64,000 nucleotides of DNA from a phage: assembly GCA_011911785.1 (NCBI GenBank), contig GCA_011911785.1_4084.1. One strand, written 5' to 3'. Shown one piece after another: positions 634 to 11,769 of this stretch (positions are counted from its first letter, which is position 1; each line of letters opens with the position of its first letter). The position numbers and the translations under genes are program-made. The notes under the pieces are model-generated. The model saw nothing but the letters and a program-made list of their open reading frames with translations, had not been told where the DNA came from and made no database searches.

Positions 634-634
634 T

Positions 635-1409: not shown

Positions 1410-1592
1410 ATGTTTAAACCAATCGAACTAGCGGCATCACATATCATCGGTAAACCTGCCGTTATCATACGCCAGGAAGACGTAAACCTATGGATCATCT
1501 ATGTAGACATGAAAGAGATTGAGCGTCACGATGATTTCAAATCAGCGTCAATTGCGTATGATATGGCGTTATGTGAGTATCAAAGAGATTAA
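1410..1592 (+). CDS. hypothetical protein (60 aa)
   Basis: RBS AAGGAG upstream of ATG. Confidence 0.55.
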   Translation: MFKPIELAASHIIGKPAVIIRQEDVNLWIIYVDMKEIERHDDFKSASIAYDMALCEYQRD

Positions 1593-1612
1593 AAGTATTT
1601 TGCAAAAAGTAC

Positions 1613-1671
1613 TTGCATTGTACTTAGAATCAAGTATAATGTTTTACATAGCAAGGGGAAACGGTTTCCCC
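1613..1671 (+). promoter_or_regulatory. sigma70-like promoter (TTGCAT-N16-TATAAT) plus 5'UTR stem-loop (PeSL-like)
   Basis: AAGTAC-TTGCATT-GTACTT inverted repeat around -35; TATAAT 1635-1640; hairpin GGGGAAACggTTTCCCC 1655-1671. Confidence 0.6.
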
Positions 1672-1691
1672 TGGTAATAAGGAAACGAATC

Positions 1692-2033
1692 ATGACTATC
1701 TCAATTGCTCAATCTAACTTTGAAAACGAAATCATCGCCCAGGCACTGCGTTTAAATGATGGTCGGGCCGAAATTAATTACGGTTTCAATTCAGGCGGTT
1801 GTGAAAACTATCAGTACTTTGTAACGGCTGATGGCGGTGTCCTGGGAATCAATACAGTTATTGTAAACATTCAGAAAATTAATTTCAATGATCCAGACGA
1901 TAGCCAGTTTTACATTGTCGGCGTAGACGTGAACTATGAGGATGACTCACTAACTGATGATTGCACTGGTGAGAAGTTAGAAAGTGCATACGGTGAAGAT
2001 GATTATCAGTCCGGTCCAGAAGATTTCGAATAA
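1692..2033 (+). CDS. hypothetical acidic protein (113 aa)
   Basis: RBS AAGGAAA; D/E-rich C-terminal half. Confidence 0.6.
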   Translation: MTISIAQSNFENEIIAQALRLNDGRAEINYGFNSGGCENYQYFVTADGGVLGINTVIVNIQKINFNDPDDSQFYIVGVDVNYEDDSLTDDCTGEKLESAYGEDDYQSGPEDFE

Positions 2034-2047
2034 TATTAAAAAATAGT

Positions 2048-2106
2048 TTGACAATAGATTATAGTACTGTATAATAGTTTACATCAAGGGGAGAATAGTT
2101 CTCCCC
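2048..2106 (+). promoter_or_regulatory. sigma70-like promoter (TTGACA-N16-TATAAT) plus 5'UTR stem-loop (PeSL-like)
   Basis: TTGACA 2048-2053, AGTACTG-TATAAT 2070-2075, hairpin GGGGAGAAtagTTCTCCCC 2088-2106. Confidence 0.65.
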
Positions 2107-2128
2107 ACTAACAGAGAGAGAAAACAAA

Positions 2129-2341
2129 ATGGCTAATATCCGGTCGAAATTGAAAAATGCAAAACAAGTTTTATTTTCAGACCATGAATACTTTAATAAA
2201 GATATTACAGGAGTTACAAGTATCAAGGAAGTAAAAGAAAAAACTGGCGTTTTGTGTGATGTGCGATTGGTTGGAACATTTGGGAATAACGTGCTATATC
2301 GATGCGGTGATTATAACTTTACATTAACCATTATCGATTAA
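2129..2341 (+). CDS. hypothetical protein (70 aa)
   Basis: ORF downstream of promoter cassette; RBS GAGAGAGA. Confidence 0.55.
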   Translation: MANIRSKLKNAKQVLFSDHEYFNKDITGVTSIKEVKEKTGVLCDVRLVGTFGNNVLYRCGDYNFTLTIID

Positions 2342-2360
2342 AAATATTATCACAGTACTA

Positions 2361-2389
2361 TTGACAAAGATTGATAGTACTGGCATAAT
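2361..2389 (+). promoter_or_regulatory. sigma70-like promoter (TTGACA-N17-CATAAT)
   Basis: TTGACA 2361-2366, AGTACTG, CATAAT 2384-2389. Confidence 0.5.
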
Positions 2390-2423
2390 AGATTTTATCA
2401 ACTACACTACTAAGGAATTAAAA

Positions 2424-2603
2424 ATGGCTATCATCGCAAAAACTGAAATCGTTGGTCTGGATTCTATCATCATGACGTTTGAAGATCAAAAAGGGATGTA
2501 TGTAGTTTCCTATGGTGATTATGTTCGGGAGTATGAAACGGTAGACGAAGCCTTTGAAAGTTACATTCGCCAGGTGAATAAAGCATACGACGACTACCGC
2601 TAA
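2424..2603 (+). CDS. hypothetical small protein (59 aa)
   Basis: track ORF 2361-2603 trimmed: its first ATG lies inside the promoter; RBS AAGGAA precedes ATG 2424. Confidence 0.5.
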   Translation: MAIIAKTEIVGLDSIIMTFEDQKGMYVVSYGDYVREYETVDEAFESYIRQVNKAYDDYR

Positions 2604-2630
2604 AATATATTACCAGTACTATTAAAGATA

Positions 2631-2658
2631 TTGACATAGTTTGATAGTACTGTATAAT
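2631..2658 (+). promoter_or_regulatory. sigma70-like promoter (TTGACA-N16-TATAAT)
   Basis: TTGACA 2631-2636, AGTACTG-TATAAT 2653-2658. Confidence 0.55.
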
Positions 2659-2702
2659 AAGTTTTATCAACAGTAGTTAACTTAACCTAAGAGAGAAAGA
2701 AA

Positions 2703-2846
2703 ATGATCGCACTGGATTCATTCATCGAAGCAGTACTGGCAAAAACTGGCGAAGATCTGACCGCAGAACAATACGCAATGATCGAACAATGCCAGCAAGA
2801 CGGTAAATCGGTGAAAGATACTGTTAAGATTATCCGCAAGATGTAA
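2703..2846 (+). CDS. hypothetical small protein (47 aa)
   Basis: RBS AGAGAGAAAG; below track cutoff; followed by intrinsic terminator. Confidence 0.45.
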   Translation: MIALDSFIEAVLAKTGEDLTAEQYAMIEQCQQDGKSVKDTVKIIRKM

Positions 2847-2852
2847 GATTAT

Positions 2853-2883
2853 AGCCCACTGGTTAACGCTGGTGGGCTTTTTA
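2853..2883 (+). terminator. rho-independent terminator
   Basis: stem AGCCCAC/GTGGGCT followed by TTTTT. Confidence 0.65.
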
Positions 2884-2967
2884 GTATATACCTATCCGAT
2901 AGTACTACAAAATAGATTAGCTCGTTAGAATGCGTTTGAGAGCGTTTAAATAAGTACTAAAAAGTAA

Positions 2968-2995
2968 TTGACAGTACTGAAAGATAGTATATAAT
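2968..2995 (+). promoter_or_regulatory. sigma70-like promoter (TTGACA-N16-TATAAT)
   Basis: TTGACA 2968-2973 then AGTACTG; TATAAT 2990-2995. Confidence 0.55.
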
Positions 2996-3024
2996 ATTTT
3001 ATATCTTAACTGAGGATAGAAATC

Positions 3025-3381
3025 ATGGGAATACAACACATCACGCGTACTACTGACAATGGTGAGATCACTGGTTATCAAGTACAGGGAAAAGCGTCAC
3101 AATTGCAGTACTGGTTTGAAAAACGTGGATTGATTGCACCGGATCTTGATTATGACCGTGTAGCGTTTATTGATTCTCTTTATGTTGATTCTGCTAGTCG
3201 GGGTAATGGTGAAGGCACGGAATTGATGAACGCCTTTATTGATGCCGCCGATGATTCAGATTGTATCATTTTAGAATGCGATACGGGAGAAGATAACGCC
3301 TTTAATCTTAAAGAATGGTACGAAGGTTTCGGATTCGAAGTACTGATCGATAGTGAATATCCTATCATGATTTTATCGTAG
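3025..3381 (+). CDS. putative GNAT-family N-acetyltransferase (118 aa)
   Basis: RBS GAGGA; segment VAFIDSLYVDSASRGNGEGTELM resembles GNAT motif A (R-G-x-G-x-G). Confidence 0.5.
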   Translation: MGIQHITRTTDNGEITGYQVQGKASQLQYWFEKRGLIAPDLDYDRVAFIDSLYVDSASRGNGEGTELMNAFIDAADDSDCIILECDTGEDNAFNLKEWYEGFGFEVLIDSEYPIMILS

Positions 3382-3394
3382 TACTAAAAAGTAA

Positions 3395-3451
3395 TTGACA
3401 GTACTGATAGATAGTGTATAATGTTTTACATGAAGGGGAAACATCTTCCCC
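3395..3451 (+). promoter_or_regulatory. sigma70-like promoter plus 5'UTR stem-loop (PeSL-like)
   Basis: TTGACA 3395-3400, TATAAT 3417-3422, hairpin GGGGAAacatcTTCCCC. Confidence 0.6.
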
Positions 3452-3463
3452 TACTAAGAGGAA

Positions 3464-3658
3464 ATGAAAATGGAAAACTTATCAAGTATTTTAGTACAAG
3501 ATGAATACGGCAATCCAGGAAGTGCTATCATTGTTCGGGGTAATAAGGCAACGTTTGTTATTGCTGGTGGACCTGTACAGCGTAGCATTAAAAACAATGC
3601 CGTTACTATTAATAATGTACGCTATCGCTTAGATAAAGAATTGATTCACAAACTGTAA
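3464..3658 (+). CDS. hypothetical protein (64 aa)
   Basis: RBS AAGAGGA upstream. Confidence 0.55.
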   Translation: MKMENLSSILVQDEYGNPGSAIIVRGNKATFVIAGGPVQRSIKNNAVTINNVRYRLDKELIHKL

Positions 3659-3685
3659 TATTAATTTAATAGAGGATAACAATAA

Positions 3686-4009
3686 ATGTACATTCATACT
3701 ACTATCACAAAGGAAGTCCGTTGCCAGTTCGAAAGTATTCCGGGCGTATGTTTCATCACTGGTACGTTTTCCCCTGGTGATCGTGATAATCCAGTACTGT
3801 TACAATTACGCCATCCATCATGGGATAAAGCATTTGATCTACCGTTGAATGAATTCGCAACTACTGCTGAAAAGTACATTAAAAATATTCGCGAGAATGA
3901 TCGACTATTCATTAATGCTTTTAGTGATTCCGCGTTAAGCGAGATCCACGGCGTATTGGTTGCAATCATGGAATCTATGCAGAAAACTAAATTCAAACAA
4001 GGTGAATAA
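3686..4009 (+). CDS. hypothetical protein (107 aa)
   Basis: RBS GAGGA upstream of ATG. Confidence 0.6.
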   Translation: MYIHTTITKEVRCQFESIPGVCFITGTFSPGDRDNPVLLQLRHPSWDKAFDLPLNEFATTAEKYIKNIRENDRLFINAFSDSALSEIHGVLVAIMESMQKTKFKQGE

Positions 4010-4015
4010 AAACTA

Positions 4016-4075
4016 TTGACAATGCAATCCAGTACTGTATAATAAGTTACATGAAGGGGAGAAATGATTCTCCCC
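4016..4075 (+). promoter_or_regulatory. sigma70-like promoter plus 5'UTR stem-loop (PeSL-like)
   Basis: TTGACA 4016-4021, AGTACTG-TATAAT 4038-4043, hairpin GGGGAGAAatgaTTCTCCCC 4056-4075. Confidence 0.65.
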
Positions 4076-4093
4076 AGTACTGAGGAAAGAAAA

Positions 4094-4306
4094 ATGCAAG
4101 GTCAACTAATCGTTCGTAAATGGTCTGATACTAACGAAAAACCGTGGGATGTACAATACATCGCCCCCAATGGTGAATCCAGATATCAACCAGGTGTAAC
4201 GCATAGTACTGAGCAATTCGCCGCCGCACACCGTGAACGCCTGTTACAATCCATGCAGCAAGGCTTCGGTGAAAAATTCATCCAAGATCATTGGCTGAAA
4301 GATTAA
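4094..4306 (+). CDS. hypothetical protein (70 aa)
   Basis: track ORF 4064-4306 trimmed: first ATG is inside the UTR hairpin; RBS GAGGAAAG precedes ATG 4094. Confidence 0.55.
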   Translation: MQGQLIVRKWSDTNEKPWDVQYIAPNGESRYQPGVTHSTEQFAAAHRERLLQSMQQGFGEKFIQDHWLKD

Positions 4307-4314
4307 AAAAGTAC

Positions 4315-4371
4315 TTGTGAAGTACTTAGAATCAAGTATAATGTTTTACATAGAGAGGGGAATAGTTCCCC
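4315..4371 (+). promoter_or_regulatory. sigma70-like promoter (TTGTGA-N16-TATAAT) plus 5'UTR stem-loop (PeSL-like)
   Basis: TATAAT 4337-4342, hairpin GGGGAAtagTTCCCC 4357-4371. Confidence 0.55.
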
Positions 4372-4393
4372 TCCTAACAAAAAGGAAAGTAAC

Positions 4394-4567
4394 ATGATCC
4401 AAGTAGAATTGACAGTACTGAAAGATCTGTTTTATCGGATGGGTACTACTGGCGAATATCCGAAAGGTGATACCGCAAAACTTTACGTATCGCTGGATGT
4501 ATGGCAACGCGAACAATTAGCAACGGCCTGGCGTAAAGGCAAAGCAGATCGCGAGGTGCAAGCATGA
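4394..4567 (+). CDS. hypothetical small protein (57 aa)
   Basis: RBS AAGGAAAG; below track cutoff. Confidence 0.45.
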   Translation: MIQVELTVLKDLFYRMGTTGEYPKGDTAKLYVSLDVWQREQLATAWRKGKADREVQA

Positions 4568-4713
4568 AAGAATACTTATTCGAAGTTACATTTTTGGGGC
4601 AAGGTATGCACCAACTAGTAAGATCCAGCGGTTATAGTCTTAACCAGGCATGGAATAACTTAAAGAAAATGTACCCTAACGCTATCACATATCGCAACCC
4701 AAAAGAAGTTTAA
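4564..4713 (+). CDS. hypothetical small protein (49 aa)
   Basis: ATGA stop/start overlap with previous ORF. Confidence 0.4.
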   Translation: MKEYLFEVTFLGQGMHQLVRSSGYSLNQAWNNLKKMYPNAITYRNPKEV

Positions 4714-4727
4714 AAATAATTGAAAAA

Positions 4728-4806
4728 GGGATTGACTCCGGTCAGTCCCTTTGCTATTATATACGCATAGAAACAAATCAGCCCACAGGGTGCATAAATG
4801 TATCTA
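4728..4806 (+). promoter_or_regulatory. repeat copy 2 of 4: terminator hairpin fused to promoter (TTGACT-N17-TATTAT) plus conserved leader
   Basis: hairpin GGGATTGAC-tccg-GTCAGTCCC then TTT; TATTAT 4755-4760. Confidence 0.65.
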
Positions 4807-4859
4807 TTATATGCTGGTGGACGTATTATCTAGTACTGAAAACTATTATAAAAAAGTAC

Positions 4860-4926
4860 TTGCATTGTACTTAGAATCAAGTATAATGTTTTACATCAGG
4901 ACGGGGAATGAAACAAGTAACCCCGT
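4860..4926 (+). promoter_or_regulatory. sigma70-like promoter (TTGCAT-N16-TATAAT) plus stem-loop
   Basis: TATAAT 4882-4887; hairpin ACGGGG...CCCCGT 4901-4926. Confidence 0.5.
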
Positions 4927-4975
4927 TAAGTAGTCCAGGAGTAAGACATAAGAAAACCTCCCCTGATAAAATAGT

Positions 4976-5003
4976 TTGACAATAGAAAGTAAACGAGTAT
5001 AAT
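4976..5003 (+). promoter_or_regulatory. sigma70-like promoter (TTGACA-N16-TATAAT)
   Basis: TTGACA 4976-4981, TATAAT 4998-5003. Confidence 0.55.
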
Positions 5004-5035
5004 ACTTACATCAACCACTGATAAGGAAACATAAA

Positions 5036-5311
5036 ATGCGGATTCTACTGACAGCTAACGAAATCGAACAAGTACTGACTACTAACCTGCAAGACTGGAA
5101 ACGTGAAGCAGATATCCAGGCGGTTCAATGGCTTAACGATAAGTTAACGCCGGATGACTTAAGCAAGATTGTAGATCCTCAATTCTATGAAGATATTCAC
5201 GACACCGCGTTAAGCGTCGAGGATGTACTTGATAAGCACTACATTGATATTGATTTGCAGGTTTACGGTCGTAAAAACTTTATCACTATTCACGACATTT
5301 ACAATAATTAA
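5036..5311 (+). CDS. hypothetical protein (91 aa)
   Basis: RBS AAGGAAA upstream of ATG. Confidence 0.6.
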   Translation: MRILLTANEIEQVLTTNLQDWKREADIQAVQWLNDKLTPDDLSKIVDPQFYEDIHDTALSVEDVLDKHYIDIDLQVYGRKNFITIHDIYNN

Positions 5312-5314
5312 GTA

Positions 5315-5375
5315 TTGACAAAGTATCTTAGTACTGTATAATAGTTTACATCAAGTGAGGGGAATGGTTCCCCTC
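5315..5375 (+). promoter_or_regulatory. sigma70-like promoter plus 5'UTR stem-loop (PeSL-like)
   Basis: TTGACA 5315-5320, TATAAT 5337-5342, hairpin GAGGGGAAtggTTCCCCTC; near-identical to cassette at 5585. Confidence 0.65.
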
Positions 5376-5398
5376 CTAACTAAAAGAGAGAAATAAAA

Positions 5399-5581
5399 AT
5401 GGCTAAGTGCACTATCTGTAAGAAAGAAATCGTATTAGTTCCAAGTGCCCGTGAACGTGCCGCTCGGTTCGGTGGCAAAGCGTCAGACTATACAAAAATG
5501 TTTACTACCCATGCAGATTGCCAGGTAGCAAAACGTTCACAAGAAAGCGTAGAATTAATGCGTAAACTTTCCAGAAAATAA
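5399..5581 (+). CDS. hypothetical protein (60 aa), possible Zn-ribbon (CxxC...HxxC)
   Basis: RBS AGAGAGA; CTICKK...HADC. Confidence 0.5.
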   Translation: MAKCTICKKEIVLVPSARERAARFGGKASDYTKMFTTHADCQVAKRSQESVELMRKLSRK

Positions 5582-5584
5582 GTA

Positions 5585-5646
5585 TTGACAAAGTATCTTA
5601 GTACTGTATAATAGTTTACATCGAGTGAGGGGAAACGGTTCCCCTC
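5585..5646 (+). promoter_or_regulatory. sigma70-like promoter plus 5'UTR stem-loop (PeSL-like)
   Basis: TTGACA 5585-5590, TATAAT 5607-5612, hairpin GAGGGGAAacggTTCCCCTC. Confidence 0.65.
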
Positions 5647-5669
5647 CTAACAAAGAGAGAGAAATAAAA

Positions 5670-5993
5670 ATGGCTATGATCCTCACCCAGAAAGTAGAAC
5701 TGAAAATTGTAACCTCCTTTGACATTAAAGTTAATCGGTGGACTGATTCACACGGCAATACTTACCACTCTTGCTACGTGTCTGCTTTGATTGGTGATCG
5801 CTGGGAGGATTTAGGACATGAAACCTTTACTTACGGTTACGGCACACAAGGCGAATACACAGGCTTGGAGATCATTAAAGAAACCGTTATAGGTTTCAAC
5901 CCGAAAGAAAAAGTTATTCATCAAATAGAAAAAGAGATCAACAAAGAAATAACAGTTCGATACTACGATGTAAAACGTAAGAAAGACATGTAA
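5670..5993 (+). CDS. hypothetical protein (107 aa)
   Basis: track ORF 5625-5993 trimmed to ATG after RBS GAGAGAGA; upstream part is promoter/hairpin. Confidence 0.55.
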   Translation: MAMILTQKVELKIVTSFDIKVNRWTDSHGNTYHSCYVSALIGDRWEDLGHETFTYGYGTQGEYTGLEIIKETVIGFNPKEKVIHQIEKEINKEITVRYYDVKRKKDM

Positions 5994-6015
5994 TAGAATC
6001 CATTTAAAGTACTAT

Positions 6016-6044
6016 TTGACATTGCCCAGATAGTACTTTATAAT
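6016..6044 (+). promoter_or_regulatory. sigma70-like promoter (TTGACA-N17-TATAAT)
   Basis: TTGACA 6016-6021, TATAAT 6039-6044. Confidence 0.5.
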
Positions 6045-6092
6045 AGACTCTAGCTTGTAGTACTAATTAACTTAACTAATAGGATGTATACC

Positions 6093-6488
6093 ATGATTAC
6101 TAAATTCTACGCTACCCGTGAAGCTGCCCGTATTGTTGCACGCGAGGAAGGAGCAGCATTTAAAGACATGGGCACGACCGCACCGAAAGGCCAACGCTGG
6201 GCCGTACAGTTCAAAGAAATCTCTGATATTGTGCATTCACCTGAGCCAGTACTAACAGCAGCAGAACTAAAACGAGCGGATATGCTGGCGGCAGTACTTA
6301 ACGCACAAGATGAGTTTATCGCTGGTTCTGATATCAAAGTACAGGTAAATGCTAATGCATGGACTCACGCGGATCACCTGGCTAACCTGAAGCGTCCAAG
6401 TGAACTGGTTCGCAACCAAAAAGAGATCCGTCATGATCGTAAGGGTAATCGTGTAACAGTATACAGTAAACGCCGCCAGGTTATCTAA
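6093..6488 (+). CDS. hypothetical protein (131 aa)
   Basis: RBS AGGA then ATG 6093 (track starts 6084); followed by terminator. Confidence 0.6.
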   Translation: MITKFYATREAARIVAREEGAAFKDMGTTAPKGQRWAVQFKEISDIVHSPEPVLTAAELKRADMLAAVLNAQDEFIAGSDIKVQVNANAWTHADHLANLKRPSELVRNQKEIRHDRKGNRVTVYSKRRQVI

Positions 6489-6510
6489 TAACTTGCAGTA
6501 CTAACAACAC

Positions 6511-6536
6511 GGCGGGATCAGTTCCCGCCTTTTTTA
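6511..6536 (+). terminator. rho-independent terminator
   Basis: stem GGCGGGA/TCCCGCC followed by TTTTTT. Confidence 0.7.
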
Positions 6537-6550
6537 TAGGATAAACTAAA

Positions 6551-6805
6551 ATGATTAAGGTTCAACTATCAAAAGATAATATCTTGCGGGTACACTATAA
6601 AGCACCACAGAGAATCATCACAAAGGCCGTACAGCTTGCTAATGAGTTTATTAATGGTAATCTATTGCCCAGGAAGTTAAGCAACGGCAAACTGCGTGTA
6701 ATCGATGTAGACACTAACAACAGAATAGTAATCGAGAATACAGGAAAGATAAACCTATATGAACACCAACAATATAATAAGAAAATAAAACTAATATCAC
6801 GTTGA
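6551..6805 (+). CDS. hypothetical protein (84 aa)
   Basis: RBS AGGA upstream of ATG. Confidence 0.5.
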   Translation: MIKVQLSKDNILRVHYKAPQRIITKAVQLANEFINGNLLPRKLSNGKLRVIDVDTNNRIVIENTGKINLYEHQQYNKKIKLISR

Positions 6806-6830
6806 CAGTACTCAATTGTTTTAGTACTAT
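6802..6830 (+). promoter_or_regulatory. sigma70-like promoter (TTGACA-N17-TACTAT)
   Basis: duplicated cassette, also at 7078. Confidence 0.45.
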
Positions 6831-6858
6831 GTATCTATACCAACACGGGAGAAACAAA

Positions 6859-7077
6859 ATGAAATTATCTAAAATCGAAAAGAAAACTATTGATGAAGCA
6901 GTTAAGCACGGTTATACCTTTCGTAATGATTCACATTTTACCAATTTTCAACAAGGGTATCGTACTATTAAAAAACTTATTGACAAAGGTTTATTAGTTG
7001 AAGTCAATAACGGTAACGGTATCGAGTATCAACCAACACAAGACGCATTATCTTTAAAGAAATATGCAATTATCTAA
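6859..7077 (+). CDS. hypothetical protein (72 aa)
   Basis: track ORF 6802 trimmed to ATG after RBS GGGAGAAA. Confidence 0.5.
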   Translation: MKLSKIEKKTIDEAVKHGYTFRNDSHFTNFQQGYRTIKKLIDKGLLVEVNNGNGIEYQPTQDALSLKKYAII

Positions 7078-7106
7078 TTGACAGTACTCAATTGTTTTAG
7101 TACTAT
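7078..7106 (+). promoter_or_regulatory. sigma70-like promoter (TTGACA-N17-TACTAT)
   Basis: near-identical copy of cassette at 6802. Confidence 0.45.
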
Positions 7107-7142
7107 ATGTACATACCAACACGGAATAACTGGAGAAACAAA

Positions 7143-7370
7143 ATGATTAATATCTTAGAACGCATCAAAGAAACTACTACGCTGGTGGATCTACTCAATG
7201 TACTGACTTTTAAAGTAACTCGGTTTAGTACTCCTGAATTTATCAACCTCATTGATAGTAAAGGTGAATACCGCATCACTATTGAAAATGGTCGTGCTAA
7301 TGTATTCAGTACTAAATCAGGTAAAACCGCAATTCATTCAGTAATTGCAAATAAAACTGTTGCAATCTAA
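7143..7370 (+). CDS. hypothetical protein (75 aa)
   Basis: track ORF 7107 trimmed to ATG after RBS GGAGAAA. Confidence 0.5.
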   Translation: MINILERIKETTTLVDLLNVLTFKVTRFSTPEFINLIDSKGEYRITIENGRANVFSTKSGKTAIHSVIANKTVAI

Positions 7371-7378
7371 TTAGTACT

Positions 7379-7438
7379 AACATATAATAGTCACATCAAG
7401 GCAGGGAATACCTCCCTGCTATCTTAAAGAGTAAATGC
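7379..7438 (+). promoter_or_regulatory. sigma70-like promoter (TTGCAA-N17-TATAAT) plus 5'UTR stem-loop
   Basis: TATAAT 7402-7407; hairpin GCAGGGA...TCCCTGC. Confidence 0.5.
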
Positions 7439-7439
7439 A

Positions 7440-8024
7440 ATGCGTAATTATACTAAATTCATCCGTACACTGGCAGAAATGGAAACTAATAAAGAGATCC
7501 TTACAGCTTGTCGGTTGGCTGGTCTGGAGATCATCGGGGCCGGATCATCCCGTATCGTATTCGCTTTAAATGATCGGTTAGTGATTAAGGTCGCTAATTG
7601 TGACGCTGGCGTAGAACAAAATGAAACAGAATGTAAGGTATGGAATTTTTTAGATTATGACCGCCCTCACCTTAAACAGTACTTTGCTAAGGTGCATATG
7701 CATTTAAGCGATCCTGATAATATGTTTATTGTTATGGATCGTTTGAGTACTGCAAGCAAAGGCAGTGTAAAGCACGTTAACGCTTGCAATGAATTAAAGT
7801 ACAATGTCAAACGTAACACTATTGAACGCCAACACCATTTCGCTGATGCACTACAACACGTTGATGATACCTTATCAACACTAACGATAAGAGATATCAG
7901 AAAGCAGAACATAGGCCAAGATCGCAATGGCCTGATTAAAGTACTTGATTACGGTTTAACCCGCAATATCTGGAATCAGTACTATAAACAACGCGACGTA
8001 AAAGCCGTAACTATAACACGATAA
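7440..8024 (+). CDS. putative protein kinase-like protein (194 aa)
   Basis: Gly-loop IGAGSSRIVF, VIKV lysine, catalytic-loop-like IRDIRKQNI (compare HRDLKPENI), DFG-like LDYG. Confidence 0.5.
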   Translation: MRNYTKFIRTLAEMETNKEILTACRLAGLEIIGAGSSRIVFALNDRLVIKVANCDAGVEQNETECKVWNFLDYDRPHLKQYFAKVHMHLSDPDNMFIVMDRLSTASKGSVKHVNACNELKYNVKRNTIERQHHFADALQHVDDTLSTLTIRDIRKQNIGQDRNGLIKVLDYGLTRNIWNQYYKQRDVKAVTITR

Positions 8025-8038
8025 AAAAGATTAAAAAA

Positions 8039-8120
8039 GGGATTGACTCCAGTCAGTCCCTTTGCTATTATATAGTCATTGAGAGATAACTCACTGACCC
8101 ATAGGGTGCATAAGTGTATC
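8039..8120 (+). promoter_or_regulatory. repeat copy 3 of 4: terminator hairpin fused to promoter plus conserved leader
   Basis: hairpin GGGATTGAC-tcca-GTCAGTCCC then TTT; TATTAT 8066-8071. Confidence 0.65.
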
Positions 8121-8166
8121 TATAATATAAGTATTGTCAGTACTGAAAACTATTTTTAAAAAGTAC

Positions 8167-8229
8167 TTGCATTGTACTTAGATTCAAGTATAATGTTTTA
8201 CATAGAGAGGGGGAAATAGTTCTCCCTCA
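8167..8229 (+). promoter_or_regulatory. sigma70-like promoter (TTGCAT-N16-TATAAT) plus 5'UTR stem-loop (PeSL-like)
   Basis: AAGTAC-TTGCATT-GTACTT; TATAAT 8189-8194; G-rich hairpin. Confidence 0.6.
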
Positions 8230-8248
8230 AAGAATAAGGAATAAAATC

Positions 8249-8470
8249 ATGACTACAATGACTTGCATTTACGCTTCCAATCTTCTGAATGATGCGGCCT
8301 TTAATGTTGATTCAGAATATCAATGTTATCGGGATGAAAATAAAAAAGTTTTTGTAGTTGATAATAATGGTTTCCATATTGAATTACAATCCGGCTTCAC
8401 TGGTGTTGATGGTAAATCAGTATGGGGCGTTCAGGATGATAAAGGCACATATCATTTTAAACGTAATTAA
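8249..8470 (+). CDS. hypothetical protein (73 aa)
   Basis: RBS AAGGAA upstream. Confidence 0.55.
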   Translation: MTTMTCIYASNLLNDAAFNVDSEYQCYRDENKKVFVVDNNGFHIELQSGFTGVDGKSVWGVQDDKGTYHFKRN

Positions 8471-8473
8471 GTA

Positions 8474-8532
8474 TTGACAAAGTATATCAGTACTGTATAA
8501 TAGTTTACATCAAGGGGAGAATAGTTCTCCCC
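8474..8532 (+). promoter_or_regulatory. sigma70-like promoter plus 5'UTR stem-loop (PeSL-like)
   Basis: TTGACA 8474-8479, AGTACTG-TATAAT 8496-8501, hairpin GGGGAGAAtagTTCTCCCC 8514-8532. Confidence 0.65.
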
Positions 8533-8553
8533 GATACTAAAAGGAATAAAATC

Positions 8554-8961
8554 ATGACTACTACTAATCAAGCTCGGTCCATCACCAACGATAAAAATCA
8601 TGCTGCAATGGTCGCTGGTTACATTGAAGCTATGCAATTCAGTACTGTACACAATGAGAACGGCGACTACCTGGAAGATTATGAATTATCAGAGCAAGCC
8701 CATCAAGCGGCAGTGATTGCATGTTCTCGTTTCCTTGAGAAGTTTAGTAATGAAATGGAAGCAGTACAAAAACACCATAATCCTGATTATACTTATAGTC
8801 ATGCAGGTCATGATCTCTTTCTTACCCGCGAAGGTCACGGTACTGGCTTTTGGGATCGTGATATCGGTCACTATGACGATGTATTCACTAAGTACTGCGA
8901 AGAAATCAACGTTTGCGATCCCTATGTAGGCGATGATAATCTAATCTATATGGGCGAATAA
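8554..8961 (+). CDS. hypothetical protein (135 aa)
   Basis: RBS AAGGAA; His/Gly-rich motif HAGHDLFLTREGHGTGFWD. Confidence 0.6.
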   Translation: MTTTNQARSITNDKNHAAMVAGYIEAMQFSTVHNENGDYLEDYELSEQAHQAAVIACSRFLEKFSNEMEAVQKHHNPDYTYSHAGHDLFLTREGHGTGFWDRDIGHYDDVFTKYCEEINVCDPYVGDDNLIYMGE

Positions 8962-8967
8962 AAGTAT

Positions 8968-9026
8968 TTGACAAAGCATATCAGTACTGTATAATAGTTT
9001 ACATCAAGGGGAGAATAGTTCTCCCC
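8968..9026 (+). promoter_or_regulatory. sigma70-like promoter plus 5'UTR stem-loop (PeSL-like)
   Basis: near-identical copy of cassette at 8474; TTGACA 8968-8973, TATAAT 8990-8995. Confidence 0.65.
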
Positions 9027-9048
9027 ACTACTAAAAGGAAACAAAATT

Positions 9049-9321
9049 ATGTCTAGCTACTCCGCTACTATGATCATCAAAGATATGAACGGTAATCCTA
9101 CTTCCGCTGGTGGATCATTTGGAAACATTAACTTAGATGGTCGGTTATCAATGGAATCAGCCATCAATGCAGCGAAAGAAGTTTTTAAGAATGAATGTAC
9201 TGTAAGCAAGCTGGATTATATGGGCTTCGCTATCGAGAAAACTAAACGTTTTGTGGACTACAAAAATCCACTGATGATTGATACTAACCTGAAAGCTAAC
9301 GAAGTGGAATACTTATTATGA
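9049..9321 (+). CDS. hypothetical protein (90 aa)
   Basis: RBS AAGGAAA upstream. Confidence 0.55.
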   Translation: MSSYSATMIIKDMNGNPTSAGGSFGNINLDGRLSMESAINAAKEVFKNECTVSKLDYMGFAIEKTKRFVDYKNPLMIDTNLKANEVEYLL

Positions 9322-9509
9322 CAGTTGATGAAGTTAAAAAAGTACTGGCAGTACTACGCTATCATAATCATTGTAAGGTTAAGAATGATCCTGATTATGT
9401 TGATTCATCCCTGGAGGAAGACACCTTAAACGCGATAAGCCATATGCAAACATTAGCAAAGCGTATGACCGAAAAGAATAGGCCGGACTATATCGGAAAT
9501 AAAATTTAA
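9318..9509 (+). CDS. hypothetical protein (63 aa)
   Basis: ATGA stop/start overlap with previous ORF. Confidence 0.5.
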   Translation: MTVDEVKKVLAVLRYHNHCKVKNDPDYVDSSLEEDTLNAISHMQTLAKRMTEKNRPDYIGNKI

Positions 9510-9516
9510 AAAGTAC

Positions 9517-9578
9517 TTGCATTGTAGTTAGATTAACGTATAATGTTTTATATCGAGAGGGGGAAATGGTTTCCCCTC
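9517..9578 (+). promoter_or_regulatory. sigma70-like promoter (TTGCAT-N16-TATAAT) plus 5'UTR stem-loop
   Basis: TATAAT 9539-9544; hairpin GAGGGGGAAAtggTTTCCCCTC. Confidence 0.6.
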
Positions 9579-9596
9579 AAGTCCAGGAGATACACC

Positions 9597-9863
9597 ATGA
9601 ACACTATCGAAATCACTATCAATGCTCACGTATACGACAACGTAGTACTGCAAACTACTATGACCGCTAACGATACCAGTACTTTGCGGAATACTGTTAT
9701 AAGTGCTGTATGTGCCGCTATCGGTGATGTATCCCTGGAAAACGCAGAACACATCAATAACGGTTTCACTATGTGCAAACGTGATAACGCAAAACATATC
9801 ATCGTAGAAGGTTACGGCGGTGTAGAATATAATCTTTATATGAAAAAAGTACTTGCATCGTAA
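9597..9863 (+). CDS. hypothetical protein (88 aa)
   Basis: track ORF 9543 trimmed to ATG after RBS AGGAGA. Confidence 0.55.
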   Translation: MNTIEITINAHVYDNVVLQTTMTANDTSTLRNTVISAVCAAIGDVSLENAEHINNGFTMCKRDNAKHIIVEGYGGVEYNLYMKKVLAS

Positions 9864-9909
9864 GTAAAACAAAGTATAATGTTTTGCATAGGGGGAGATA
9901 TCCTCCCCC
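9853..9909 (+). promoter_or_regulatory. sigma70-like promoter (TTGCAT-N16-TATAAT) plus 5'UTR stem-loop
   Basis: TATAAT 9875-9880; hairpin GGGGGAGatatCCTCCCCC. Confidence 0.6.
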
Positions 9910-9928
9910 ACTAATAAGGAGTACTACG

Positions 9929-10153
9929 ATGGCTAATCATGATGAACTGATTCGGGAAGTAGCTAACCTGGCGGCAGAAAAGAAATCATTTGATTCTATC
10001 TATAACACCGCTCACCGTGATTCAGTACTGGCATGTAATCAGGATCAAAAAGATGAACTGATCGCAACCTATCATGAAGCGTGGAAGTATTACCGTCAAT
10101 GGGAGAAAGAAGAAAAAGCATCAACCATAAGAGGATTAAATAATCTAGTATAA
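9929..10153 (+). CDS. hypothetical protein (74 aa)
   Basis: track ORF 9884 trimmed to ATG after RBS AAGGAG. Confidence 0.55.
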   Translation: MANHDELIREVANLAAEKKSFDSIYNTAHRDSVLACNQDQKDELIATYHEAWKYYRQWEKEEKASTIRGLNNLV

Positions 10154-10160
10154 CAATAAA

Positions 10161-10189
10161 AGGGGATGATAATATCCCCTTAATAATTT
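10161..10189 (+). terminator. putative intrinsic terminator
   Basis: stem AGGGGAT/ATCCCCT followed by an A/T-rich tract. Confidence 0.45.
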
Positions 10190-10205
10190 CTATAATAGGT
10201 TAACA

Positions 10206-10472
10206 ATGAAAAAGAAAACAACATATCGCTATAATAAAAATTATCAATCCGTTGTATTAGATCACTCTATGCTCCCGCTCGTTGTCCCTGCCGTTGGTGT
10301 AGTCTATCAATCCATATACTGGTCAAGGAAACAACAAAAGTACTTAAAAGGCCCAATAGCACGCTATGAGGGTAATGGTGTATGGTCCGATCCGTTACAT
10401 CCAATCACTACGCGTTATATTGAATATTTTCCTTATTGTGACTACATTGAAATACATCCTAAATTTAATTGA
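10206..10472 (+). CDS. hypothetical protein (88 aa), paralog of 10553-10810
   Basis: shared motif GNGxWxDPxxP...DYIE with the next ORF. Confidence 0.55.
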   Translation: MKKKTTYRYNKNYQSVVLDHSMLPLVVPAVGVVYQSIYWSRKQQKYLKGPIARYEGNGVWSDPLHPITTRYIEYFPYCDYIEIHPKFN

Positions 10473-10477
10473 TAGTA

Positions 10478-10531
10478 TTGACAGTACTAACTGATAGTGT
10501 ATAATGTTTTGCATAGGGGGAATACTCCCCC
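10478..10531 (+). promoter_or_regulatory. sigma70-like promoter plus 5'UTR stem-loop
   Basis: TTGACA 10478-10483, TATAAT 10500-10505, hairpin GGGGG-aatact-CCCCC. Confidence 0.6.
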
Positions 10532-10552
10532 AATATTAAAAGGGGAAACATC

Positions 10553-10810
10553 ATGGAACAATTCACACAATATCGGGTAAATCCTCAAGCTATGGCCTAC
10601 GTAGAAGACCATAAAACGTTACCAGTACTGCAACCAGTTAAAGGCCGTATCTATCGTGGCCTTGCATGGAATACGGCCCAGGATGGATATAAAACCGTTG
10701 CCGTGGGGATGTATTGCGGTAATGGTGAATGGTTTGATCCAAATAATCCGGTAGCTATTGACAGTACTGAAAAAATGAAATGGGCCGACTATATCGAGGA
10801 TATCTCATAA
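10553..10810 (+). CDS. hypothetical protein (85 aa), paralog of 10206-10472
   Basis: RBS AAGGGGAAA; shared motif CGNGEWFDPNNP. Confidence 0.55.
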   Translation: MEQFTQYRVNPQAMAYVEDHKTLPVLQPVKGRIYRGLAWNTAQDGYKTVAVGMYCGNGEWFDPNNPVAIDSTEKMKWADYIEDIS

Positions 10811-10816
10811 AACTAT

Positions 10817-10877
10817 TTGACAGTACTATCATATAGTGTATAATGTTTTACATAGAGCGGGGGAATAGTTCTCCCGC
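10817..10877 (+). promoter_or_regulatory. sigma70-like promoter plus 5'UTR stem-loop
   Basis: TTGACA 10817-10822, TATAAT 10839-10844, hairpin GCGGGGGAAtagTTCTCCCGC. Confidence 0.6.
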
Positions 10878-10899
10878 CAATAGTTTGGAGTAAAACATT

Positions 10900-11100
10900 A
10901 TGTCAATCGCTAACGAAATGATCGCAGTACTGAAAGAAGCTAAAGCCAACCTGATCGACGTAAAGATCCAGGAACTACAATCCGGCTTAATCGGCTGTAC
11001 TTGTACCGCTGGTGGGGCGACAGATTATCGTGAATTCGAATCACTCGAATCGATGGTTCGGTATCTTACAATGATCGTGGAAGATTGGAAGATCATCTAA
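10900..11100 (+). CDS. hypothetical protein (66 aa)
   Basis: RBS GGAG upstream. Confidence 0.55.
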   Translation: MSIANEMIAVLKEAKANLIDVKIQELQSGLIGCTCTAGGATDYREFESLESMVRYLTMIVEDWKII

Positions 11101-11118
11101 CAAAAAAGAATAAAAAAA

Positions 11119-11196
11119 GGGATTGACTCCGGTCAGTCCCTTTGCTATTATATACGCATAGACAAAAACTAGCCCACAGGGTGCATAAGTGTATCC
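11119..11196 (+). promoter_or_regulatory. repeat copy 4 of 4: terminator hairpin fused to promoter plus conserved leader
   Basis: hairpin GGGATTGAC-tccg-GTCAGTCCC then TTT; TATTAT 11146-11151. Confidence 0.65.
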
Positions 11197-11264
11197 AAAA
11201 TATATAGTTAATAACGGTGAGTAACTATCTGCTGGTGGAGTGAAAACTATTAATAAAAAAAGTA

Positions 11265-11293
11265 TTGACAAAGTATATCAGTACTGCAATAAT
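11265..11293 (+). promoter_or_regulatory. sigma70-like promoter (TTGACA-N17-AATAAT)
   Basis: TTGACA 11265-11270, AGTACTG, weaker -10. Confidence 0.45.
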
Positions 11294-11347
11294 GTATCTC
11301 GTAGGGCGGCAATGGTGCGACGGCCCACAAAGTTAGGAGATTCACAA

Positions 11348-11680
11348 ATGAGTACTTCAATCGCCATCGTTAATGCTTTCATCCGTACCAATGTTTCTTC
11401 TGTATTCATCGACGGACTGGATCGGGAAGTAGAATACTCAATCATTATCGCACAGACTGCAAACGGTGCTCGGTATATCCTCAATGATAGCGAAGCAAAT
11501 CACTACTACTACACTAAAGCTACTGGCTTTAAACGCATCGATGCGGACGTAGTATACGCTAAGATGAATAAGCTGGTAGACAAGATTAACGCTAAAGGTA
11601 CTATCGATTTACAGTACTGGACCGAAACCGATCCAGAATATGGATCTCACCGCTACCTGAATCCAGGTATTAAAATGTAA
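11348..11680 (+). CDS. hypothetical protein (110 aa)
   Basis: track ORF 11240 trimmed to ATG after RBS AGGAGA. Confidence 0.55.
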   Translation: MSTSIAIVNAFIRTNVSSVFIDGLDREVEYSIIIAQTANGARYILNDSEANHYYYTKATGFKRIDADVVYAKMNKLVDKINAKGTIDLQYWTETDPEYGSHRYLNPGIKM

Positions 11681-11687
11681 AAAGTAC

Positions 11688-11749
11688 TTGCATAGTACTT
11701 AGTAAAGTGTATAATGTTTTACATAGAGAGGGGGAAATGGTTCTCCCTC
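11688..11749 (+). promoter_or_regulatory. sigma70-like promoter (TTGCAT-N16-TATAAT) plus 5'UTR stem-loop
   Basis: TATAAT 11710-11715; G-rich hairpin 11728-11749. Confidence 0.6.
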
Positions 11750-11769
11750 CTAAATTAAGGAGTACTACC

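What the first reader, a model, noticed from the sequence alone, without database searches (positions are those of the whole stretch)
1605..11701. Inverted repeat AAGTAC-TTGCATT-GTACTT embracing the -35 of a promoter subclass
Promoters at 1613, 4860, 8167, 9517, 9853 and 11688 share AAAAAGTACTTGCAT(T/C)GTA(C/G)TT, in which the -35 hexamer sits between inverted AGTAC arms. This is typical of an operator overlapping a promoter and would allow one regulator to control this subclass, whereas the TTGACA subclass carries AGTACTG at the -10 instead.
Basis: seen in the sequence. Interest (0 to 1): 0.45.

Follow-up and report, generated by a model that had tools for sequence, protein, structure and literature searches.

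The report
Phased AGTACT boxes in early promoters
The inverted repeat around the -35 box of six early promoters of this giant E. coli phage is real, but it is two neighbouring copies of a short palindrome (AGTACT) that sits in nearly every early promoter of this phage group and occurs about ten times too often across the whole genome. It therefore points to a genome-wide recognition signal, not a private switch for six genes.

Summary
Six + strand sites match AAGTACTTGCATYGTASTT with at most 2 mismatches (0 expected), and each embraces the -35 of a strong sigma-70-type promoter. The window is a 121Q/PBECO4-like jumbo coliphage (Asteriusvirus). Bases 1-12.5 kb lie in the ~21-kb direct terminal repeat, which is packed with small early genes.

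The "subclass operator" reading is only partly supported. AGTACT is its own reverse complement, so two copies 11 bp apart form an inverted repeat automatically.
- The left copy, abutting the -35, occurs in 68 of 75 non-redundant TTGCA-type promoters and in five genus-level groups.
- The right copy occurs in only 15 of 75, only in Asteriusvirus. Orthologous promoters of sister phages carry unrelated spacers in its place.
- 120 of 124 early promoters carry (A)GTAC(T) at one of a few slots about 10 bp apart.

AGTACT is also enriched 7-17-fold genome-wide in all enterobacterial Rak2-like genera sampled. This arises through synonymous codon choice and is under purifying selection. The motif is rare in E. 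coli and not enriched in T4, PA5oct or Atu_ph07.

Most likely an unidentified symmetric DNA-binding factor reads AGTACT genome-wide and acts on all early promoters. This is inferred, not shown. I found no description of the motif in the searchable literature.

The parts
1607..1640 (+). Promoter with AGTACT at slot 1 (1608-1613, its last T is the first T of the -35), -35 TTGCAT (1613-1618), TGTACT at slot 2 (1619-1624) and -10 TATAAT (1635-1640). It drives gene 1692-2033.
   Evidence: In sister phages the orthologous promoters lack the right arm.
4309..4342 (+).
   Evidence: AGTACT just after the -35 is kept in the four sister genomes with an alignable orthologue.
4854..4887 (+). Promoter with slots 1 and 2 filled: -35 at 4860-4865, -10 at 4882-4887. 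A further CAGTACTG-like copy lies upstream (AGTACTG at 4832-4838).
   Evidence: The right arm is replaced by AGTATCACGATAAGCG in phages Ec-M-J and UE-S1.
8161..8194 (+). Promoter with slots 1 and 2 filled: -35 at 8167-8172, -10 at 8189-8194. An upstream CAGTACTG lies at 8138-8145.
   Evidence: The right arm is replaced by ACTATCTCAATGAGCG in 121Q and UE-S1.
9511..9544 (+). Promoter with slot 1 intact and a degenerate right arm (TGTAGT): -35 at 9517-9522, -10 at 9539-9544.
   Evidence: The degenerate arm is unchanged in three sister genomes.
9847..9880 (+). Promoter with slot 1 intact and a degenerate right arm (CGTAAG): -35 at 9853-9858, -10 at 9875-9880.
   Evidence: Orthologues read TGTAAGT, AATAACT or AGTACTG at this place.
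11682..11715 (+). Promoter with two perfect AGTACT copies 11 bp apart (11683-11688 and 11694-11699): -35 at 11688-11693, -10 at 11710-11715.
   Evidence: [A/T]GTACTTAG is kept in all five sister genomes while the rest of the spacer varies.
835..862 (+). TTGCAA promoter with CAGTACTG abutting the -10 (slot 3).
2048..2075 (+). TTGACA-16-TATAAT promoter with AGTACTG abutting the -10 (slot 3). The same design occurs at 2631-2658, 4016-4043, 5315-5342, 5585-5612, 8474-8501 and 8968-8995.
2968..2995 (+). TTGACAGTACT promoter, with the motif overlapping the last base of the -35 (slot 2). The same design occurs at 3395-3422, 10478-10505 and 10817-10844.
6802..6830 (+). Weaker promoter TTGACAGTACTCAATTGTTTTAGTACTAT, in which a second AGTACT overlaps the -10 (TACTAT). 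It lies upstream of the winged-helix gene. A twin lies at 7078-7106.
6859..7077 (+). Early gene for a 72-aa winged-helix DNA-binding protein. It is only a candidate regulator.
   Evidence: pLDDT 91.7; best structural matches are AspA, MarR and MecI (TM 0.77-0.85). Homologues were found only among Asteriusvirus-like contigs, and the gene is missing from the TH47 locus.
1..64000 (.). Genome-wide over-representation of the palindrome (C)AGTACT(G): 231 copies of AGTACT (21.5 expected) and 62 of CAGTACTG (0.62 expected).

Best explanation
The six sites are strong sigma-70-type early promoters in the direct terminal repeat of an Asteriusvirus jumbo phage. The inverted repeat is not a dedicated 19-bp operator. 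It is two adjacent copies of one short self-complementary element, (C)AGTACT(G).

The element occupies a few fixed slots about 10 bp apart, so all lie on one face of the helix:
- slot 1 abuts the -35 on its 5' side;
- slot 2 starts at or one base after the end of the -35;
- slot 3 abuts the -10;
- further copies lie near 50, 60 and 76 bp upstream of the -10.

Almost every early promoter has at least one slot filled. TTGCA-type promoters use slot 1. TTGACA-type promoters use slot 2 or slot 3. The six promoters of the finding are TTGCA-type promoters that also carry a slot-2 copy. They share it largely by descent or gene conversion of one spacer cassette.

The same element is spread through the whole genome far above chance, through synonymous codon choice. 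It is conserved between sister phages and rare in host DNA.

Inferred mechanism (not shown): a symmetric, probably dimeric, DNA-binding factor recognises AGTACT along the phage genome. It could be phage-encoded or, less likely, specific to Enterobacterales hosts. At early promoters its sites flank the -35 and -10 boxes, so it can modulate host RNA polymerase at all early promoters together. Coordinated shut-off after the early phase is the most plausible effect. Promoters with two sites 11 bp apart would be bound more tightly, which is a difference of degree and not a separate circuit.
For: Identity and setting:
- 90-92% identity to 121Q-like phages. The matching region of vB_Ec-M-J is annotated as a 21.5-kb direct terminal repeat.
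- 13 perfect 12/12 TTGACA-N16/17-TATAAT promoters on the + strand in 12.5 kb.

Slots:
- Among 124 non-redundant early promoters from 8 loci, 120 carry GTAC at one of four positions.
- The left AGTAC occurs in 68 of 75 TTGCA promoters but only 2 of 43 TTGAC promoters.
- 40 of 41 TTGAC-type promoters without slot 1 carry a spacer copy, against 26 of 68 TTGCA-type promoters with slot 1 (Fisher p = 5e-11).
- Slots 2 and 3 are never filled together.
- In 163 promoters from 12 loci, AGTACT peaks at offsets -27 (92), -7 (63), -17/-16 (19), -50/-51 (15), -60/-61 (8) and -76/-77 (10), measured from the first T of TATAAT. Apart from one copy at -18 and one at -10, none lies in between from -26 to -8.

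Deep conservation:
- RaK2 early promoters read AAGTAC-TTGACA-N9-CAGTACTG-TATAAT.
- CBB, fHe-Yen9-04 and metagenomic relatives show slots 1 and 3.

The right arm is not the conserved part:
- It occurs in 15 of 75 TTGCA promoters and in none of about 27 TTGCA promoters of other genera.
- Orthologous promoters swap whole spacers.

Genome-wide signal:
- 231 observed against 21.5 expected in the window, and 7-17-fold enrichment in Asteriusvirus, Munch-like phages, RaK2, GAP32 and CBB, including core-gene regions.
- The motif occurs in all three reading frames.
- Ser-Thr is encoded as AGT-ACT 83 of 129 times, against 17 expected from codon usage.
- Flanks are symmetric (C before and G after, 113 each), and full palindromes exceed the number expected from independent halves.
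- Sites are conserved 78-88%, against 46-56% for controls.
- A 50-kb sample of E. coli K-12 has 3 copies against 11.6 expected.
- The motif is not enriched in T4, PA5oct or Atu_ph07.
Against: - No binding protein has been identified. The only DNA-binding candidate found nearby, a 72-aa winged-helix protein, is restricted to Asteriusvirus and absent from the TH47 locus, which still has the palindromic promoters.
- The promoters are paralogues that exchange cassettes. The fixed positions therefore partly reflect common descent, and the counts are not independent.
- Outside promoters, GTAC sites show no pairing or periodicity.
- One 5-kb island carries only the strand-specific, non-palindromic variant AGTACA (33 copies) and no AGTACT. 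A purely symmetric duplex-DNA reader does not explain this.
- Promoters, transcription start sites and timing are predicted from sequence only.
- Samples from other genera are 7-12 kb each, and the E. coli sample is 50 kb.
Confidence: 0.5

Rival explanations
1. The 19-bp inverted repeat AAGTAC-N7-GTACTT is an operator for a specific repressor or activator dimer that controls only this promoter subclass.
For: - The dyad embraces the -35 in 4-5 promoters of the window.
- At 11682, and at the 4309 variant, the slot-2 copy is kept in all sister genomes with an alignable orthologue while the neighbouring spacer bases vary.
- An early winged-helix DNA-binding protein is encoded nearby, and like the two-copy arrangement it is confined to Asteriusvirus.
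Against: - Symmetry is limited to the arms, and each arm is itself an (imperfect) copy of the self-complementary AGTACT.
- The right arm is lost through spacer replacement at orthologous promoters of 1607, 4854 and 8161, and varies between orthologues at 9847. The degenerate arm of 9511 is unchanged in three orthologues.
- The left arm occurs in 68 of 75 TTGCA promoters whether or not the right arm is present.
- The three perfect copies are identical over the whole promoter.
- The arm motif occurs hundreds of times elsewhere.
- TH47 keeps the palindromic promoters but lacks the winged-helix gene in the locus examined.
- The 11-bp pair spacing is barely above background in 52 kb of early DNA: 8 observed against 5.1 expected.
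Confidence: 0.1
2. AGTACT is an intrinsic promoter or DNA-structure element read by host RNA polymerase alone. Phased, flexible G-TA-C steps on one helical face would help the DNA wrap around the polymerase and make the early promoters very strong. No separate factor is involved.
For: - The slots are about 10 bp apart.
- Early promoters must fire with host polymerase alone immediately after injection.
- The weaker -35 variant TTGCA is the one coupled to slot 1.
Against: - It does not explain the 7-17-fold enrichment, the purifying selection or the synonymous-codon bias inside late and core genes.
- It does not explain the absence from T4, which uses the same host polymerase.
- It does not explain the preference for the symmetric C..G flanks.
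Confidence: 0.2
3. AGTACT is the target of a phage enzyme, such as a methyltransferase or other modifying enzyme, a nicking or cleaving endonuclease, or a primase. Its presence in promoters is secondary to a genome-wide need for such sites.
For: - Palindromes of 6-8 bp are typical targets of type II restriction-modification enzymes. AGTACT is the ScaI site (established knowledge).
- Genome-wide sites are single and dispersed.
- RaK2 encodes two putative DNA methyltransferases (PMC3622015).
- The strand-specific AGTACA island fits a strand-directed process better than a symmetric binder does.
Against: - It does not explain the strict slot positions relative to the -35 and -10, or the rule that almost every promoter has at least one copy.
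- fEgEco12 DNA gave the restriction patterns predicted in silico with all enzymes tried (PMC13070987). Whether ScaI was among them is not stated.
- I did not search for a cognate enzyme.
Confidence: 0.15
4. There is no function. The repeat reflects recent duplication and gene conversion of one promoter cassette, and AGTACT abundance is a neutral compositional quirk.
For: - Three of the six sites are identical over about 46 nt.
- Spacers move between promoters as whole modules.
Against: - The motif is conserved above controls.
- It is created by non-random synonymous codon choice in three frames.
- It is shared by genera with little DNA similarity.
- Its placement in promoters follows rules.
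Confidence: 0.05

Closest known systems
RpoD-like early promoters with an UP-like element in Rak2-like jumbo phages (vB_PcaM_CBB paper, PMC5259590; GAP32 record annotates 'TTGACA(N15-17)TATAAT' promoters)
   Same: The same phage group, the same host-polymerase promoter type, an A-rich upstream element, and clustering in the early region and terminal repeat.
   Different: Those descriptions do not mention AGTACT, its fixed slots, the TTGCA/TTGACA coupling or the inverted repeat.
Classical operators overlapping a promoter (for example lambda cI/Cro operators or LexA boxes). Named from general knowledge.
   Same: Dyad symmetry overlapping the -35 or -10, which could give one factor control of several promoters.
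   Different: Here the symmetric unit is 6-8 bp and not 14-20 bp. It occurs at several alternative positions, is present in about 97% of early promoters, and occurs hundreds of times outside promoters. The second arm is not conserved at orthologous promoters.
Bacillus phage SPO1 TF1 and phage phi29 p6: phage-encoded genome-coating DNA-binding proteins whose preferred sites overlap early promoters. Named from memory as a functional analogy only.
   Same: Early genes with strong host-type promoters (in SPO1 also inside a terminal redundancy), and a factor that binds along the phage genome and represses early promoters.
   Different: TF1 selects hydroxymethyluracil DNA and p6 reads bendability, not a defined palindrome. 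No homologue was sought or found here, and binding is untested.
HIP1 (GCGATCGC), the highly iterated palindrome of cyanobacterial genomes. Named from memory.
   Same: A short palindrome over-represented many-fold genome-wide, including inside genes in all frames, and conserved across related genomes. Its function is unresolved.
   Different: A different sequence, a virus and not a cell, and here the motif has in addition a rule-bound position in promoters.
E. coli SlmA-binding sequence GTGAGTACTCAC. Recalled from memory as a lead only.
   Same: It contains AGTACT at its centre. From memory, SlmA occurs in Enterobacterales, the hosts of all motif-rich phages, and not in Pseudomonas.
   Different: The phage motif prefers C before and G after (113 of 231 each). 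G before is depleted (18 of 231), and the outer GT..AC is not enriched. As far as sequence shows, it is therefore not a SlmA site.

Membership tests
Sigma-70 (RpoD)-type early promoter | A -35 hexamer resembling TTGACA, a 16-18-bp spacer and a -10 TATAAT | tested here: met
   All six sites have TTGCAT-16 bp-TATAAT. Neighbouring promoters are perfect 12/12 matches.
Sigma-70 (RpoD)-type early promoter | A position upstream of a gene with a ribosome-binding site, on the coding strand | tested here: met
   Each is followed within 40-60 nt by a Shine-Dalgarno sequence and an ATG. The exception is 4854, which is followed by a second promoter at 4976-5003.
Sigma-70 (RpoD)-type early promoter | Transcription starts there early in infection, by host polymerase | not testable with these tools
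   No transcriptome of an Asteriusvirus was found.
Repressor operator (inverted repeat) controlling a promoter subclass | Dyad symmetry overlapping core promoter elements | tested here: met
   6-bp arms AAGTAC/GTACTT flank the -35 in 4 of 6 sites. They are degenerate in 9511 and 9847.
Repressor operator (inverted repeat) controlling a promoter subclass | Both half-sites conserved at orthologous promoters | tested here: not met
   The right arm is replaced by unrelated spacers in sister phages at 1607, 4854 and 8161 and varies at 9847. It is conserved only at 11682 and 4309.
Repressor operator (inverted repeat) controlling a promoter subclass | The site is restricted to the regulated promoters | tested here: not met
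   The arm motif is present in 120 of 124 early promoters and 231 times in the window.
Repressor operator (inverted repeat) controlling a promoter subclass | A cognate DNA-binding protein, and changed kinetics of the subclass | not testable with these tools
   There is only a candidate winged-helix gene at 6859-7077. Binding was not tested.
Genome-wide over-represented palindrome (HIP1-like) | A many-fold excess over composition across the genome | tested here: met
   231 observed against 21.5 expected in the window. AGTACT is the top palindromic hexamer in every Rak2-like locus.
Genome-wide over-represented palindrome (HIP1-like) | Present inside genes in all frames through synonymous choice | tested here: met
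   Frame counts are 81/29/61. AGT-ACT is used for 83 of 129 Ser-Thr pairs, against 17 expected.
Genome-wide over-represented palindrome (HIP1-like) | Individual sites maintained between related genomes | tested here: met
   78-88% are conserved, against 46-56% for controls, in five genome pairs.
SlmA-binding sequence | The GT-G-AGTACT-C-AC flanks | tested here: not met
   The flank profile shows C/G and not G/C next to the core, and no GT/AC further out. The SlmA consensus itself is recalled from memory.

The most novel reading that the evidence does not exclude
Enterobacterial Rak2-like jumbo phages mark their 350-kb genomes with more than a thousand copies of (C)AGTACT(G). In the samples taken, this is a roughly 60-fold higher density than in host DNA. 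A dedicated symmetric factor reads the mark and uses the phased copies built into every terminal-repeat promoter to switch the whole early programme. That would be a combined genome 'self-mark' and global early-gene operator. The strand-specific AGTACA island would be a deliberately exempt region.
Probability: 0.3. Interest if true: 0.75.

Novelty: new variant of a known kind. Interest (0 to 1): 0.55.

Why it matters
The Rak2-like jumbo phages (121Q, PBECO4, RaK2, GAP32, CBB and many therapy candidates) have hundreds of unknown genes, and how their gene expression is timed is essentially uncharacterised.

A single 6-8-bp element that sits in rule-bound positions in almost every early promoter, and is also selected genome-wide, gives a concrete handle:
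- It can be used as bait to fish out the reader protein.
- It can be mutated in reporter constructs.
- It separates phage from host DNA by about 60-fold in site density.

It also warns against reading each local palindrome in these genomes as a private operator.

Tried and rejected
- **Host-factor look-alikes, recalled from memory.** The SlmA site shares the core, but the flank profile disagrees. The LexA box shares only its left half, TACTGTATA, with AGTACTGTATAAT; the second half, ACAG, is absent at the required spacing (read). The TrpR operator shares GTACT but not CTAG. None was pursued further.
- **RNA explanations.** There is no Rfam family and no tRNA in the window. The promoter copies lie upstream of the predicted start sites, so they are not in their own transcripts.
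- **Protein-based search of IMG/VR for related loci.** It returned only 121Q.
- **A loosely specified DNA pattern.** It returned mostly chance hits; only contigs with several hits were used.
- **Literature searches** for CAGTACTG, for AGTACT with palindrome, and for an Asteriusvirus transcriptome. They returned nothing relevant. The RaK2, CBB, fEgEco12 and fENko-Kae01 papers and the 2026 jumbo-phage review do not mention the motif.
- **The genes downstream of the six promoters.** All are small proteins of unknown function with no common theme.
- **The 72-aa winged-helix protein as the motif reader.** It is a real DNA-binding fold, but it is not clade-wide and is missing from the TH47 locus, so it is at most a local regulator.
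- **Maximal-order Markov expectations.** They hide the enrichment because all sub-words are enriched too. Base-composition and codon-usage expectations were used instead.

Full report
**1. Observation**

The pattern AAGTACTTGCATYGTASTT, allowing two mismatches, matches six times, all on the + strand: 1607, 4854, 8161, 9511, 9847 and 11682. None was found in 100 shuffles. It is followed by a 16-bp spacer, TATAAT, the conserved GTTTTACAT, a GC-rich hairpin, a Shine-Dalgarno sequence and an ATG.

Some details differ from the description:
- Only 1607, 4854, 8161 and 11682 have an intact GTAC in both arms. Site 9511 has GTAG and 9847 has GTAA.
- A seventh site of the same design (4309-4327, -35 TTGTGA) was missed.
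- The three perfect copies are identical over about 46 nt, the whole promoter.
- Of 13 TTGACA promoters in 1-12.5 kb, seven carry AGTACTG abutting the -10 as stated. An eighth, at 6039, has AGTACTT there, four carry TTGACAGTACT instead, and one has none.

**2. What the region is**

Bases 1-12,000 are 90-92% identical to 121Q/PBECO4/slurp01-like jumbo coliphages of the genus Asteriusvirus. In vB_Ec-M-J the matching region lies inside an annotated 21.5-kb direct terminal repeat, and in fENko-Kae01 inside a 19.7-kb one. The repeat is packed with small genes of unknown function, most with their own promoter. The simple promoter scan finds 13 perfect 12/12 sigma-70 consensus promoters on the + strand in 12.5 kb. 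The six downstream genes have no Pfam family and no shared theme.

**3. The arms are copies of a self-complementary hexamer**

AGTACT is its own reverse complement. Two copies side by side therefore form an inverted repeat with no need for a larger symmetric operator. In the six sites the left copy, AGTACT, ends on the first T of the -35. The right copy, TGTACT or AGTACT, starts one base after the -35, 11 bp from the first.

**4. Rules across promoters**

I collected 124 non-redundant early promoters from the window, four other Asteriusvirus genomes and two Munch-like phages.
- 120 carry GTAC at one of four fixed positions.
- AGTAC abutting the -35 occurs in 68 of 75 TTGCA-type promoters but only 2 of 43 TTGAC-type promoters.
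- TTGAC-type promoters carry the motif in the spacer instead. Twenty-eight have it abutting the -10, 12 have it abutting the -35, and none has both.
- TTGAC-type promoters without the upstream copy have a spacer copy in 40 of 41 cases. TTGCA-type promoters with the upstream copy have one in 26 of 68 (Fisher p = 5e-11).
- The arrangement in the finding (upstream copy plus a copy just after the -35) accounts for 15 of the 75 TTGCA-type promoters, 14 of them with an intact upstream copy.

With 163 promoters from 12 loci, perfect AGTACT peaks at offsets -27, -17/-16 and -7 from the first T of TATAAT. Further peaks lie upstream at about -38, -50, -60 and -76. Apart from one copy at -18 and one at -10, none lies in between from -26 to -8. 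The spacing of about 10-11 bp puts all copies on one helical face.

**5. Deep conservation of the left and -10 copies, but not of the right arm**

RaK2 (Alcyoneusvirus) early promoters read AAGTAC-TTGACA-N9-CAGTACTG-TATAAT followed by a 5' hairpin. CBB, fHe-Yen9-04 and two large metagenomic contigs show the same upstream and -10 copies. None of about 27 TTGCA promoters in these genera or in Munch-like phages has GTAC just after the -35.

Within Asteriusvirus, orthologous promoters exchange whole 16-bp spacers.
- The right arm at 1607 is present only in the window.
- At 4854 it is absent in two of five sister genomes.
- At 8161 it is absent in two of four.
- The degenerate arm of 9511 is unchanged in three sister genomes.
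- At 9847 the position reads CGTAAGT, TGTAAGT, AATAACT or AGTACTG, depending on the genome.
- Only at 11682 and 4309 is the copy after the -35 kept in all sister genomes with an alignable orthologue.

**6. The motif is a genome-wide signal**

AGTACT occurs 231 times in the 64-kb window against 21.5 expected from base composition. CAGTACTG occurs 62 times against 0.62 expected. It is the most over-represented palindromic hexamer in every Rak2-like locus examined. That includes 12-kb core-gene slices of RaK2 (27 against 3.9), GAP32 (28 against 4.0) and CBB (27 against 4.0).

Several lines show the excess is selected at the DNA level:
- Inside genes the motif occurs in all three frames, with counts of 81/29/61.
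- Ser-Thr pairs are encoded AGT-ACT 83 of 129 times, against 17 expected from codon usage. Val-Leu pairs are encoded GTA-CTN 89 of 164 times, against 37 expected.
- Flanks are symmetric, with C before and G after 113 times each. Full palindromes exceed what independent halves would give.
- Between Asteriusvirus genomes that are 85-88% identical, 78-88% of AGTACT sites are unchanged, against 46-56% of control hexamers of the same composition.
- Outside promoters the sites are single and dispersed.
- A 50-kb sample of E. coli K-12 has 3 copies against 11.6 expected.
- T4, PA5oct and Atu_ph07 slices show no excess.

**7. Interpretation**

Shown:
- The inverted repeat exists.
- Its arms are instances of a clade-wide element with rule-bound promoter positions.
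- The element is under selection throughout the genome.
- The second arm is a variable, lineage-restricted addition.

Inferred:
- A symmetric DNA-binding factor reads AGTACT.
- Because its sites flank the -35 and -10 in nearly all early promoters, it controls the early programme as a whole.
- Two-copy promoters differ only in affinity.

I rank this above three rivals: an intrinsic polymerase or bendability element, which cannot explain the coding-region signal or its absence from T4; an enzyme target, which cannot explain the slot rules; and neutral duplication, which is contradicted. The subclass-operator model remains possible for the two sites where the second copy is conserved, but it fails two of its defining tests.

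**8. Candidate reader**

A 72-aa early protein (6859-7077) is predicted with high confidence (pLDDT 91.7) as a winged helix. Its closest structural matches are AspA, MarR and MecI. Its own promoter has AGTACT abutting the -35 and overlapping the -10. However, homologues appear only among Asteriusvirus-like contigs. The gene is also absent from the TH47 locus, which keeps the palindromic promoters. It is a lead for a local regulator, not for the clade-wide reader.

**9. Novelty and limits**

Published descriptions of these phages mention RpoD-like promoters with UP-like elements (PMC5259590). The papers I could search do not mention AGTACT, the slots or the palindrome. That library is open-access only, so prior description elsewhere cannot be excluded.

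All promoter, start-site and timing statements are sequence predictions. Promoter counts are inflated by shared ancestry, and samples from other genera are small.

Noticed in passing
window 19698-24683 (broader 18.5-25 kb): A 5-kb block of 11 tightly packed + strand genes has no AGTACT and no GTACT at all. It has 33 copies of AGTACA (1.8 expected), all on the + strand, in all three frames and at non-homologous positions. The reverse complement TGTACT is absent. A weaker version occurs in phage fENko-Kae01 (L002 22.8-25.8 kb: 13 AGTACA against 4 AGTACT). Unexplained.
   Followed up: partly
window 2868, 3563, 4813, 7181, 9106, 11008, 11231: Seven copies of the E. coli Chi sequence GCTGGTGG lie in one orientation, all inside the terminal-repeat early region (0.22 expected for the whole window). 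Only one copy lies in the opposite orientation, at 50990. This may protect a genome end against RecBCD.
   Followed up: no
window, about 3-30 nt downstream of each predicted early start site (for example 1651-1675, 8205-8226, 11715-11741): 17 of 19 early transcripts would begin with a stable 5' stem-loop (-10 to -16 kcal/mol) 1-6 nt from the predicted 5' end. The stem sequences differ between promoters and genera while pairing is kept. They look like 5'-end stabilisers.
   Followed up: partly
window 1293-1400, 4725-4835, 8036-8140, 11116-11225: A four-copy module. A hairpin with a 12-bp stem (AAAGGGATTGACTCCGGTCAGTCCCTTT) embeds a TTGACT-N17-TGcTATTAT promoter-like site. It is followed by about 55 conserved nt that include GCCCACAGGGTGC. 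Three copies lie 125-315 nt upstream of the palindromic promoters. A similar GCCCACAGGGTGC occurs in a metagenomic relative (L015). There is no Rfam match.
   Followed up: partly
window 4895-5003: The promoter at 4854 is followed after about 90 nt by a second, perfect TTGACA-16-TATAAT promoter (4976-5003), ahead of gene 5036-5311. The first promoter may therefore make only a short hairpin-containing RNA.
   Followed up: no
window 6859-7077: A 72-aa early protein with a confidently predicted winged-helix DNA-binding fold (closest matches AspA, MarR and MecI). It is annotated 'transcriptional regulator' in phage Turkey5.
   Followed up: yes
window 13178-17752: A run of about 20 overlapping 65-87-aa + strand ORFs with no promoters of their own, just past the terminal repeat. 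AGTACT is sparse there (7 copies in 4.6 kb).
   Followed up: no
window 3025-3381 and 7440-8024: The early region encodes a GNAT acetyltransferase (Pfam E = 6e-9) and a weakly kinase-like protein (below the Pfam cut-off, annotated Ser/Thr kinase in relatives). Both are plausible host-takeover enzymes.
   Followed up: no
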